Virus record (IMG/VR): IMGVR_UViG_2703718812_000020
Coordinates: 1 to 7,777 of that record
Source of the DNA: a virus
Lineage: Duplodnaviria; Heunggongvirae; Uroviricota; Caudoviricetes
DNA: 7,777 bases
Direction: 5' to 3' (one strand)
Below the pieces are notes generated by a model. The model had not been told where the DNA came from, ran no database searches, and saw only the letters and a list, made by a program, of their open reading frames with translations. The translations under genes and the position numbers were made by a program. Of the stretch, positions 6,441-6,779 are shown in pieces (position 1 is the stretch's first letter; every line of letters starts with the position of its first letter).

Positions 6441-6626
6441 TTACTTAATTATGTAATTCATACCCGAACTCTCTGTTGACAGCCTTCTTCTGCAGGCTTC
6501 AATAACCCACGCTGAAAAATTACCTGAACCTTTCTGATCAAGAGCGATGTTAATTTGTTCAATCATTTGGTTAGGAAAGCGGATGTTGCGGGTTGTTGTT
6601 CTGCGGGTTCTGTTCTTTGATGACAT
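6441..6626 (-). CDS. small ribbon-helix-helix-like (Arc/MetJ/CopG-type) DNA-binding protein, 61 aa
   Basis: MSSKNRTRRTTTRNIRFPNQMIEQINIALDQKGSGNFSAWVIEACRRRL... has a basic N-tail, then a beta-strand-like IRFPNQMIEQI and two helix-like segments, which is the RHH layout. GGGGG RBS 7 nt upstream on the minus strand. I believe the same ORF is present near the right end of lambda, which suggests conservation. Confidence 0.5.
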   Translation of the reverse strand: MSSKNRTRRTTTRNIRFPNQMIEQINIALDQKGSGNFSAWVIEACRRRLSTESSGMNYIIK

Positions 6627-6779
6627 AATGTTGCCCCCATATTCAGTGTTGCTGATTTGTATTATCTGAAGTTGCTTTTACGTTAATTTGATGCAGATCA
6701 ATTAATACGATACCTGCGTCATAATTGATTATTTGACGTGGTTTGATGGCGTAGATGCACGTTGTGACATGTAGATGAT

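What the first reader, a model, noticed from the sequence alone, without database searches (positions are those of the whole stretch)
6441..6729. Minus-strand ribbon-helix-helix-like ORF beside cos, with an inverted repeat upstream
The 61-aa ORF has the layout of an RHH DNA-binding protein. An 8-bp perfect inverted repeat (atcaatta ... taattgat, 6697-6729, 17-bp spacer) lies 70-100 bp upstream of its start, and cos is just beyond. If expressed, it could be an autoregulated repressor or a packaging or partition accessory factor. I believe this segment is conserved at the lambda right end, so it may simply be an overlooked conserved element.
Basis: partly seen in the sequence, partly recalled or inferred. 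Interest (0 to 1): 0.4.

Follow-up and report, generated by a model that had tools for sequence, protein, structure and literature searches.

The report
Known small prophage DNA-binding gene beside cos
The 61-codon reverse-strand reading frame next to the phage DNA-packaging site is a real, strongly conserved gene of the already catalogued YlcI/YnfO (DUF3950) family. It very probably folds as a ribbon-helix-helix DNA-binding protein, but its function is still unknown and the nearby inverted repeat is not convincingly its binding site.

Summary
Both parts of the observation are in the sequence as described. The ORF 6441-6626(-) and the 8-bp inverted repeat 6697-6704/6722-6729 lie to the left of cosQ (6797-6803) and the cosN nick (6826|6827).

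**The ORF is a genuine gene.**
- It passes the curated cut-offs of Pfam DUF3950 and NCBIfam YlcI/YnfO.
- It is 100% identical to an annotated RefSeq gene in a prophage of E. coli O103:H2 12009.
- All 90 copies examined are intact.
- dN/dS is 0.10, and 32 of 48 variable sites fall at third codon positions.
- Lambda carries an intact 64-aa orthologue at 48109-48303(-) that its reference records do not annotate.

**The repeat is weak evidence.**
- About 5% of shuffles of the 200-nt spacer contain an equal repeat.
- It is no better conserved than its surroundings.
- Natural variants break it without compensation.
- It is absent where a 90-92% identical protein sits next to an HNH-TerS-TerL packaging module instead of cos.
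- It is also not part of cos: phi80 and N15 lack it.

**Most likely function.** A small dimeric DNA-binding regulator made from its own leftward promoter. No functional study was found. Satellite paralogues with palindromic operators, and fusions to a TerS DNA-binding domain, are the best new leads.

The parts
6441..6626 (-). YlcI/YnfO-family (DUF3950) gene, 61 codons plus TAA stop
   Evidence: One search gives the ORF. Pfam PF13132 scores 71.6 bits against a cut-off of 25. NCBIfam NF041551 scores 36.4 bits against 30. It matches phrog_949 at E 1.2e-32. It is 100% identical to RefSeq gene ECO103_RS10940 / WP_032164595.1. dN/dS is 0.10.
6471..6605 (-). Conserved core, residues 8-52. Predicted ribbon-helix-helix: extended strand RNIRFP (residues 13-18), helix A 19-32, turn KGSGNFS, helix B 37-55
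6444..6479 (-). Variable C-terminal tail (residues 50-61). Homology to lambda ends here, at about window 6492
   Evidence: Five alternative tails (61, 64, 66, 74 and 77-aa forms) follow the same core. The lambda and 434 alignment diverges to the left of about 6492.
6634..6638 (-). Shine-Dalgarno-like GGGGG, 8 nt before the ATG
   Evidence: Seen in the sequence. A ribosome-binding site is annotated at the equivalent place in phage 434.
6627..6748 (-). Conserved about 120-nt block upstream of the gene. Presumed 5' untranslated region and promoter; travels with the gene only in cos-adjacent loci
   Evidence: Few variable sites among 19 distinct alleles. Absent from phi80, N15 and Stx1_111698, which keep cosQ and cosN. 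Replaced by an HNH gene in type-B loci. No consensus sigma-70 site on the minus strand.
6697..6729 (.). The reported inverted repeat ATCAATTA-N17-TAATTGAT
   Evidence: Described. Shuffle test. Identical in lambda at 48373-48405. Variants ATTAATTA and TAATTGCC occur without compensation. As RNA the minus strand folds at -8.4 kcal/mol (z -1.6), and the plus-strand optimum (-9.8 kcal/mol, z -2.7) uses a different pairing. No U tract follows.
6775..6791 (.). Second perfect inverted repeat ATGATAAT-A-ATTATCAT, immediately left of cosQ. It is cos-linked, not gene-linked
   Evidence: Found. GATAA-N2-3-TTATC is kept in lambda, phi80, N15 and Stx1_111698.
6797..6838 (+). cosQ (6797-6803) and cosN, with the nick at 6826|6827 and the 12-nt cohesive end at 6827-6838
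   Evidence: Alignment to the lambda and 434 right ends. cosQ is annotated in phage 434 and phi80.
6414..6444 (.). Hairpin overlapping the stop codon. Terminator-like for rightward (plus-strand) transcripts
   Evidence: As RNA it folds at -11.9 kcal/mol, z -3.15.
7054..7560 (+). Nu1-type small terminase gene, divergent from the ORF across cos. PGAP places the start at 7081
   Evidence: Pfam PF07471, E 5.8e-21. Annotation.

Best explanation
The ORF is a functional gene of the YlcI/YnfO (DUF3950) family, carried by lambda-like prophages at the far right end of the virion chromosome.

Its 50-residue core most likely folds as a ribbon-helix-helix. In such proteins two subunits pair their N-terminal strands (here RNIRFP) into a two-stranded ribbon that reads the DNA major groove. 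A short variable C-terminal tail follows the core.

The gene is read leftward, against the late operon, so it needs its own promoter. In cos-adjacent phages that promoter should lie in the conserved about 120-nt block between the gene and cosQ.

I infer that the protein is a small sequence-specific DNA-binding regulator, probably a repressor that also controls its own promoter, made independently of late transcription. Its target is not established, and the reported inverted repeat is at best a weak candidate.

Shown: the gene is real, it is under purifying selection, it belongs to the family, the predicted fold is RHH-like, it sits in the described contexts, and the K-12 orthologue is transcribed.

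Inferred: dimerisation, DNA binding, repressor activity, and the position of the promoter.
For: Family and identity:
- Pfam DUF3950 scores 71.6 bits (cut-off 25) and NCBIfam YlcI_YnfO_N scores 36.4 bits (cut-off 30).
- The window is 100% identical to a prophage of E. coli O103:H2 12009, where the gene is annotated.
- The surrounding 801-bp segment (window 6300-7100, which includes the cos region) matches 4574 of 5426 complete E. coli genomes.

Selection:
- All 90 copies examined are intact and start with ATG.
- Over codons 1-50, 24 distinct alleles give pS 0.43, pN 0.043 and a ratio of 0.10. Of 48 variable sites, 32 are at third positions.
- Divergent relatives at 33-54% identity keep the pattern K-x-IRFP...NFSAWV-EAC.

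Fold:
- The models show an extended N-terminal segment followed by two helices, with mean pLDDT 67.6 and 73.5.
- The best PDB sequence-profile hit is a CopG-family RHH protein, but at a non-significant E 0.43.
- A weak PHROG hit falls on the C-terminal part (profile positions 99-144 of 342) of a HicB-like antitoxin family.

Regulator-like setting:
- In satellite elements a 60-aa paralogue is a stand-alone unit. Two perfect 12-bp palindromes, TGGTACGTACCA, bracket a TATAAT, and a terminator follows the gene.
- Other satellite paralogues are preceded by three or so iterated 9-12-nt motifs at 20-23-nt spacing. The motif sequence differs between elements.
- In every context the gene points away from the operon that starts with the packaging genes.

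Expression: K-12 ylcI forms a convergent overlapping transcript pair with ybcW in at least 50% of the RNA-seq samples analysed (PMC12288877). DLP12 ylcI has the same repeat and cos layout.
Against: - No consensus sigma-70 promoter is found on the minus strand upstream of the gene.
- No sequence-profile link to a named RHH family reaches significance.
- No operator could be identified in lambdoid loci. The inverted repeat fails the co-occurrence test, and no k-mer is over-represented in the upstream block.
- Expression from this particular prophage is not shown.
- The palindromes in satellites could be bound by some other protein.
Confidence: 0.55

Rival explanations
1. Packaging-linked factor. 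The protein binds DNA near cos or the terminase recognition site, or acts together with the small terminase. It would modulate the start or end of packaging, or protect the prophage's packaging site from being used by other elements.
For: - The gene always lies at the border of the packaging module, although the module is of two unrelated kinds: lambda-type cos with Nu1/A, and HNH-TerS(Terminase_2)-TerL.
- Satellites encode natural fusions of the DUF3950 core to a small-terminase N-terminal DNA-binding domain. Both Pfam hits pass their cut-offs.
- The fused domain is 66% identical to residues 2-54 of the TerS of exactly those HNH-type prophages that carry a DUF3950 gene.
- Capsid-forming satellites of Enterobacter are also reported to carry YlcI/YnfO genes (PMC13612085).
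Against: - The gene is on the strand opposite to the late operon, so it would not be co-expressed with terminase.
- phi80, N15 and some Stx1 phages have the same cosQ and cosN without the gene. From my own knowledge, the lambda in vitro packaging literature does not call for such a factor.
- In HNH-type loci the gene is separated from the presumed cos by the whole HNH gene.
- Distant family members sit in non-phage contexts, such as next to cytochrome bd or in a fimbrial/restriction island.
Confidence: 0.2
2. The inverted repeat 6697-6729 is the operator through which the protein represses its own promoter.
For: - The repeat lies in the conserved upstream block, 71-103 nt before the ATG.
- It is perfect in the window, lambda, 434 and DLP12.
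- It is lost together with the gene in phi80 and N15.
- Only 5% of shuffles of the spacer contain an equal repeat.
Against: - It is absent from all type-B loci, although the protein there is 90-92% identical and keeps the same NIRFPN strand segment. The only half-site found is 596 nt on the downstream side of the start codon, in three of the eight type-B loci scanned.
- Variants ATTAATTA (five loci) and TAATTGCC (one locus) break an arm without any compensating change.
- The arms are no less variable than the neighbouring bases.
- The 25-bp centre-to-centre spacing and the position so far upstream of the likely -10 region are unusual for an autoregulatory operator. This point rests on my own knowledge.
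Confidence: 0.15
3. Orphan antitoxin-like adaptor. The RHH core anchors the protein to DNA or drives dimerisation, and the variable C-terminal tail binds and neutralises a protein partner, such as a toxin or a host or phage factor.
For: - The best structural matches are type II antitoxins: VapB12, TacA1 and TacA2, MazE9 and Rv0298.
- There is a weak HicB-like PHROG hit.
- The architecture of a conserved N-terminal RHH followed by a short, modular, variable tail resembles antitoxins.
Against: - No co-directional partner gene is conserved next to the ORF. The left flank differs between lambda, the window and other variants.
- There is no hit in the PADLOC defence library.
- The tails are only 11-27 residues long.
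Confidence: 0.08
4. The reading frame is not translated. The conservation reflects a DNA-level role of the cos-flanking sequence, or recent spread.
For: - The whole block from codon about 50 to cos is highly similar among lambda-like phages.
- The lambda reference records never annotated the ORF.
Against: - dN/dS is 0.10 with pS 0.43, and two thirds of the variable sites are at third positions.
- The frame is kept in loci that lack cos (type B) and in relatives at 33-54% identity in unrelated contexts.
- A Shine-Dalgarno-like sequence is present in both upstream types.
Confidence: 0.02

Closest known systems
YlcI (DLP12 prophage) and YnfO (Qin prophage) of E. coli K-12; Pfam PF13132 DUF3950; NCBIfam NF041551; PHROG 949
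   Same: The N-terminal 50-residue core is the same (92% identity to K-12 YlcI over residues 1-52). In DLP12 the position is also the same: minus strand between the lysis-side accessory genes and cos/nohD, with the identical inverted repeat. The window's protein is named as this family in RefSeq.
   Different: Only the C-terminal tail differs (STESSGMNYIIK, 61 aa, against the 64- and 77-aa forms). The family has no assigned function. The 22 papers that mention either ylcI or ynfO contain no functional study.
Unannotated lambda ORF at 48109-48303 (complement), and phage 434 gene CPT_434_77
   Same: These are orthologues, 80% identical over the whole protein and 83% over residues 1-59. Nucleotide homology runs at about 92% from window 6492 through cos and includes the repeat.
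   Different: The left flank and the last about 12 codons are unrelated. The window also has a divergent Nu1 and cosB.
Ribbon-helix-helix DNA-binding domains (Arc/MetJ/CopG superfamily: NikR, the PutA N-terminal domain, and the antitoxins VapB, TacA and MazE9)
   Same: - Predicted strand-helix-helix topology of about 45 residues.
- Alternating polar and hydrophobic strand, N-I-R-F.
- A Gly/Ser/Asn turn before helix B.
- Best structural superpositions at 1.4-2.1 A over 35-37 residues.
   Different: There is no significant sequence-profile match to any RHH family. Dimerisation and DNA binding are untested, and no operator is known.
Prophage accessory genes read against the late operon, such as lambda bor
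   Same: A small gene on the opposite strand at the end of the late region, so it needs its own promoter. bor lies in the same region on the same strand in lambda and 434.
   Different: bor encodes a lipoprotein expressed in lysogens, with a known phenotype. For this gene, neither expression in lysogens of this phage nor any phenotype is known.
Rpp of E. coli phage-inducible chromosomal islands (redirects helper packaging)
   Same: A satellite-encoded small DNA-binding protein built on a TerS-like DNA-binding domain (PMC6739421). In that respect it resembles the DUF3950-TerS(N) fusions found here.
   Different: Rpp is a winged helix-turn-helix dimer with a coiled coil, not an RHH. It has no DUF3950 domain and is not encoded by the phage itself.

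Membership tests
YlcI/YnfO family (Pfam DUF3950 PF13132; NCBIfam NF041551) | Score above the curated family cut-offs | tested here: met
   PF13132 scores 71.6 bits against 25. NF041551 scores 36.4 bits against 30.
YlcI/YnfO family (Pfam DUF3950 PF13132; NCBIfam NF041551) | Small protein (about 50-90 aa) with the conserved core at the N-terminus and the signature IRFP...NFSAWV-EAC | tested here: met
   The protein is 61 aa. Nearly invariant columns are I15, R16, F17, I25, F37, W40, V41, A44 and C45.
YlcI/YnfO family (Pfam DUF3950 PF13132; NCBIfam NF041551) | Lambdoid prophage context like K-12 ylcI and ynfO (next to the Nu1-like noh gene and cos) | tested here: met
   The layout matches DLP12: ybcW, ylcI, cos, nohD.
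Ribbon-helix-helix superfamily | Strand-helix-helix topology of about 45 residues | tested here: met
   AlphaFold gives an extended segment at residues 13-18, helix 19-32 and helix 37-55. Mean pLDDT is 67.6, or 73.5 for the domain alone.
Ribbon-helix-helix superfamily | Structural similarity to solved RHH domains | tested here: met
Ribbon-helix-helix superfamily | Significant sequence-profile relationship to a named RHH family | tested here: not met
   Pfam shows no RHH family at E up to 1. The PDB profile search gives CopG at E 0.43 with the full alignment and nothing with the domain alignment. hhalign against Arc gives probability 1.5%, and against Mnt 0.2%.
Ribbon-helix-helix superfamily | Homodimer with an intermolecular antiparallel beta-ribbon that binds the DNA major groove | not testable with these tools
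   Only monomer prediction was available, and there is no binding assay.
Type II antitoxin | Adjacent co-transcribed toxin gene | tested here: not met
   No conserved co-directional neighbour is present, and the flanks differ between variants. PADLOC gives no hit.
Lambda cos subsites (for the inverted repeat 6697-6729) | Conserved in phages that share cosQ and cosN | tested here: not met
   phi80, N15 and Stx1_111698 keep cosQ and cosN but lack the repeat. Their homology to the window starts at about 6770.
Autoregulatory operator of the adjacent RHH gene (for the inverted repeat) | Co-occurs with the gene, with arms maintained or co-varying | tested here: not met
   The repeat is absent from type-B loci, and variant arms are not compensated.
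Intrinsic terminator (for the inverted repeat) | G+C-rich stem followed by a U tract | tested here: not met
   The stem is A+U-rich (-8.4 kcal/mol on the minus strand; the plus-strand optimum of -9.8 kcal/mol uses a different pairing) and no U tract follows. The scan does not call it a terminator.

The most novel reading that the evidence does not exclude
DUF3950 proteins could be a dedicated class of RHH 'gatekeepers' of packaging modules.

In prophages, a constitutively made repressor would sit at the head of the terminase and head operon, or at cos. It would keep these silent or inaccessible outside late development.

In satellites, the same core controls the satellite's own switch through palindromic operators. 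Fused to a copy of the helper's TerS DNA-binding domain, it would occupy the helper's packaging recognition site or sense the helper's TerS. That would give packaging interference or helper detection.

This would assign a function to a gene present in most E. coli genomes, and to an unannotated gene of lambda itself.
Probability: 0.15. Interest if true: 0.7.

Novelty: already known. Interest (0 to 1): 0.3.

Why it matters
The gene itself is not a discovery. It is a catalogued family and is annotated in the source genome.

What is worth keeping is the state of knowledge around it.
- It is a gene under clear purifying selection.
- The cos-proximal segment that contains it matches about 84% of complete E. 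coli genomes, often in several copies.
- Lambda has it, where both reference records leave it unannotated.
- The literature that could be searched here gives it no function.

The fold assignment makes it experimentally approachable as a DNA-binding protein. The satellite paralogues give concrete starting points. Some have obvious operators, and others are fused to a TerS DNA-binding domain. Both bear on whether this family connects regulation with DNA packaging or with satellite-helper conflict.

For the reported inverted repeat, the practical message is negative. It should not be assumed to be the operator.

Tried and rejected
1. **The repeat as a cos subsite.** Rejected: phi80, N15 and Stx1_111698 share cosQ and cosN but lack it.
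2. **The repeat as a terminator or stable RNA hairpin.** Rejected: it is A+U-rich. The minus strand folds at z -1.6, and the plus-strand optimum uses a different pairing. No U tract follows.
3. **The repeat as an IHF site.** By eye, none of the ATCAA copies is followed by the TTR of the WATCAANNNNTTR consensus. No tool was available for this.
4. **An iterated motif in the upstream block.** ATCAA occurs four times and GCAAC three times, but this is no more than in shuffles (P = 0.36).
5. **A shared 7-mer.** TAACGTA lies at -59 in type-A and -62 in type-B upstream regions. It is absent from the second type-B allele and is expected by chance at roughly 7% (my estimate), so I dropped it.
6. **A sigma-70 promoter for the gene.** No consensus match on the minus strand in either context. 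Hand-picked candidates are poor: TTAACG-16-TAATAC, and GATAAT with no -35 element.
7. The alignment falls in register over the strand and helix A, but it is not significant.
8. **PDB sequence searches.** No significant hit, so no solved structure of the family exists.
9. **Known RNA families.** None in 6300-6900.
10. **Defence-system models.** None match the ORF.
11. **A Pasteurella 'phage' Pmp7 tblastn hit.** It lies antisense to an annotated repressor gene at E 2e-4, so I treated it as unreliable.
12. **CII-site annotations in the phage 434 record.** These are consensus matches on the plus strand, and one of them is broken in the window (TTAT instead of TTGT). I did not pursue them.
13. **AFDB fold search.** Unavailable on the machine.
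Full report
**What is there**

The window is the right end, cos site and first packaging genes of a lambda-like prophage.
- It is 100% identical over 6300-7100 to a prophage of E. coli O103:H2 strain 12009, and to six other complete genomes.
- Alignment with the right ends of lambda and phage 434 places cosQ (GGGTCCT) at 6797-6803. The cosN nick lies between 6826 and 6827, followed by the cohesive end GGGCGGCGACCT.
- A Nu1-type small terminase gene follows (Pfam PF07471, E 5.8e-21).
- The reported ORF is at 6441-6626 on the minus strand: 61 codons, ATG start, with a G-rich ribosome-binding-like run 8 nt upstream.
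- The reported repeat ATCAATTA (6697-6704) / TAATTGAT (6722-6729) is perfect and lies 71-103 nt upstream of the start codon.

**Is the ORF a gene?**

Yes.
- It passes the curated thresholds of Pfam DUF3950 (71.6 bits against 25) and of NCBIfam NF041551, 'YlcI/YnfO family protein' (36.4 bits against 30). It matches PHROG 949, function unknown, at E 1.2e-32.
- RefSeq annotates exactly these coordinates as a YlcI/YnfO family protein, WP_032164595.1.
- The surrounding 801-bp segment (window 6300-7100, which includes the cos region) matches 4574 of 5426 complete E. coli genomes. The median is 2 places per genome and the maximum is 14.
- I examined 90 copies from viral contigs, lambda, 434 and other loci. 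Every one has an ATG and an uninterrupted frame.
- Over codons 1-50, 24 distinct nucleotide alleles differ mostly at synonymous sites: pS 0.43, pN 0.043, ratio 0.10. Of 48 variable sites, 32 are at third positions.
- Relatives down to 33-54% identity keep the same pattern, K-x-IRFP ... NFSAWV-EAC.

This excludes conservation at the DNA level only.

**Lambda**

Lambda has an intact 64-aa orthologue at 48109-48303 (complement) and the identical 33-nt repeat at 48373-48405. Neither J02459 nor NC_001416 annotates the ORF. The curated phage 434 record does, as a hypothetical DUF3950 protein with a ribosome-binding site. It is not right for databases in general.

**Fold**

Two AlphaFold models were made: the full protein with 27 homologues, and the 45-residue core with 18. 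Both give an extended N-terminal segment (RNIRFP) followed by two helices (19-32 and 37-55), with mean pLDDT 67.6 and 73.5.

| Search | Model | Result |
|---|---|---|
| Foldseek against the PDB | full | 6 of 7 hits contain an RHH domain, all with E above 1 |

- NikR;
- the operator-bound RHH domain of PutA;
- TacA2;
- the TCP domain of PCF6, which I count as RHH-like from my own knowledge;
- MazE9;
- Rv0298;
- HP0222.

The absolute scores are low, as expected for a 40-residue monomer whose strand only pairs in the dimer. The agreement is nevertheless one-sided.

Sequence-profile searches do not reach significance:
- The best PDB hit is a CopG-family RHH protein at E 0.43.
- Nothing is found with the domain-only profile.
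- hhalign against Arc and Mnt is not significant.

I therefore accept 'RHH-like' as the best structural reading. Dimerisation and DNA binding remain untested.

**Architecture of the gene and its contexts**

The conserved core ends at about residue 50. After it come at least five unrelated C-terminal tails, giving 61-, 64-, 66-, 74- and 77-aa forms. Homology to lambda stops at window 6492, inside the gene.

Two upstream contexts exist.
- **Type A** (this window, lambda, 434 and DLP12). The gene is followed upstream by a conserved about 120-nt block (6627-6748), a more variable stretch, and then cosQ and cosN.
- **Type B** (about 24 of 84 lambdoid loci). A 90-92% identical protein, sometimes with the same left flank as this window, starts 41 nt from a divergently read HNH endonuclease gene. 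A Terminase_2-type TerS and a TerL follow. Nothing of the type-A block, repeat or cos is present.

Conversely, phi80, N15 and Stx1_111698 share cosQ and cosN with the window, but homology begins only at about 6770. They have neither the gene nor the repeat.

The gene is thus an independent module that repeatedly sits at the border of the packaging genes, pointing away from them.

**The inverted repeat**

It is real, but the evidence for function is weak.
- An equal repeat occurs in 5.3% of shuffles of the 200-nt spacer and in 23.6% of shuffles of the 650-nt region.
- Among 19 distinct type-A alleles the arms are no less variable than their neighbours.
- The natural variants ATTAATTA and TAATTGCC each break one arm, with no change in the other.
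- It is missing in type B, although the presumed DNA-reading strand segment NIRFPN is the same there.
- It is not a terminator or a notable RNA hairpin.
- It is not part of the shared cos.
- No other short motif is over-represented in the block.

The repeat may still be part of the type-A promoter region. It does travel with the gene when cos is adjacent. The specific operator model is nevertheless disfavoured.

**What the protein probably does**

The library searched here holds no functional study of YlcI, YnfO or DUF3950. The family name appears only in gene lists and mutation tables.

One useful datum is that K-12 ylcI forms a convergent overlapping transcript pair with ybcW in at least half of the RNA-seq samples analysed (PMC12288877). 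So the DLP12 orthologue, which has the same repeat and cos layout, is transcribed.

The most informative relatives are in satellite elements of the integrase-AlpA-primase type.
- A 60-aa paralogue there is a self-contained unit. Two perfect 12-bp palindromes, TGGTACGTACCA, lie 33 nt apart and bracket a TATAAT. The second abuts the start codon, and an intrinsic terminator follows the gene.
- A second paralogue is preceded by three or four GTTTAACAC/GTTAAACAC repeats.
- Other satellites have three copies of GTGCACAAACAC, or two tandem 23-mers, at 20-23-nt spacing.

That is the classical appearance of small autoregulated repressors, with operators that change from element to element.

On this basis I take 'small dimeric DNA-binding regulator made from its own promoter, independent of late transcription' as the best explanation (confidence 0.55). 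It is shown that the gene is real and selected, that its predicted fold is RHH-like, that it occupies these contexts, and that an orthologue is transcribed. It is inferred that the protein binds DNA, that it represses, and where its promoter lies.

**The packaging rival**

The second satellite paralogue is a natural fusion of the DUF3950 core to the N-terminal DNA-binding domain of a small terminase.
- Both Pfam hits are above their cut-offs.
- Its last 53 residues are 66% identical to residues 2-54 of the TerS of type-B prophages, and 53% identical to the satellite's own TerS.
- The fusion lacks the rest of TerS.

Together with the constant position next to two unrelated packaging modules, this keeps a packaging-linked role alive (confidence 0.2).

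Against it:
- The gene is on the opposite strand to the late operon.
- phi80 and N15 have the same cosQ and cosN without the gene.
- In type B the gene is separated from the presumed cos by the HNH gene.
- Distant members occur in non-phage neighbourhoods.

An antitoxin-like adaptor role is suggested by the structural neighbours and the modular tail. However, there is no partner gene (confidence 0.08).

**Comparison and novelty**

The feature is a member of a known, named family of unknown function, and it is annotated in its source genome. It is therefore already known as an object.

The analysis adds four things:
- a quantitative case for selection;
- a reasonably supported fold assignment;
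- a demonstration that the nearby repeat is neither a cos element nor a convincing operator;
- the satellite leads.

Interest is modest at 0.3. The most novel reading still allowed is a gatekeeper of packaging modules shared by prophages and their satellites. I put that at about 0.15 probability.

Noticed in passing
window 6775-6791: A second perfect 8-nt inverted repeat, ATGATAAT-A-ATTATCAT, lies 6 nt left of cosQ. Unlike the reported repeat, its core GATAA-N2-3-TTATC is kept in lambda, phi80, N15 and Stx1_111698, which share only cosQ and cosN with the window. It overlaps a plus-strand promoter-like site (GTGACA-16-TATCAT, 10 of 12 matches) that points into cos and Nu1.
   Followed up: partly
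L091 5545-5589 and 5807-5826; also L092, L093: In an integrase-AlpA-primase satellite, a 60-aa DUF3950 gene is preceded by two perfect 12-bp palindromes, TGGTACGTACCA, 33 nt apart, which bracket a TATAAT. An intrinsic terminator follows the gene. It looks like a textbook autoregulated repressor unit.
   Followed up: partly
L091 6001-6363 (P0224); L084 4714-5103 (P0194): Natural fusions of the DUF3950 core to the N-terminal DNA-binding domain of a Terminase_2-type small terminase. The fused domain is 66% identical to residues 2-54 of the TerS of HNH-type lambdoid prophages, and the rest of TerS is missing. The fusions are preceded by iterated motifs: GTTTAACAC/GTTAAACAC in L091 and three copies of GTGCACAAACAC in L084. 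This could be a packaging-interference or helper-sensing protein.
   Followed up: partly
L091 8696-9776: In E. coli CP027459 the satellite lies directly beside a 61-aa TerS fragment, an HNH gene and a DUF3950 gene of a type-B prophage. The satellite may therefore have inserted into, or next to, the prophage's small terminase gene.
   Followed up: no
L042 2594-3186 and about 24 other loci (for example L037-L045, L069-L075): An alternative context for the gene: 41 nt from, and divergent to, an HNH endonuclease gene followed by TerS and TerL (an HK97-like packaging module). The left flank is the same as in this window.
   Followed up: yes
window 6146-6301 (+): A 51-codon hydrophobic ORF (MSGEVQMDFMLTVSGVVILSIAYTADKYGCHLLSRIGAYCSLMLIFSSLFF) is convergent with the DUF3950 gene. 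RefSeq annotates it as a hypothetical protein, and it is also present in type-B locus L042. It has no family hit in Pfam, NCBIfam or PADLOC.
   Followed up: partly
window 6347-6374 and 6414-6444: A strong G+C-rich hairpin at 6347-6374 folds at -18.8 kcal/mol (z -4.55) but has no U tract on either strand. A second hairpin overlaps the ORF's stop codon (-11.9 kcal/mol, z -3.15) and is terminator-like for rightward transcripts. This fits the convergent ybcW-ylcI transcript overlap reported for K-12.
   Followed up: partly
window 221-393 (+): A full-length match to the Rfam sRNA family STnc100 (RF02076, 104 bits, E 1.5e-22), in the region upstream of the lysis genes.
   Followed up: no
window 7054 vs 7081: The start of the Nu1-type small terminase is ambiguous. 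RefSeq starts at the ATG at 7081. An in-frame ATG at 7054, preceded by GGAGAGGAG, would add MAFLLNKSD and looks like the better start.
   Followed up: no
L006, about 2880-2890 (upstream of the ORF at 3001): In one prophage the homology to the window stops exactly at the outer arm of the inverted repeat. Beyond it lies a fragment that translates to ...MMPLLDKLREQYGVGPLCSE. From memory this resembles the start of an IS3-family transposase; I did not verify it.
   Followed up: no
L002 1810-2004 (lambda 48109-48303, complement): The lambda reference records J02459 and NC_001416 do not annotate this intact, conserved 64-aa gene. Several newer lambda and 434 records do.
   Followed up: yes
L086-L088, L089: Distant DUF3950 members (51-54% identity) occur outside recognisable prophages. 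One lies between a fimbrial usher/chaperone pair and a type I restriction system. Another lies directly after cytochrome bd genes.
   Followed up: no
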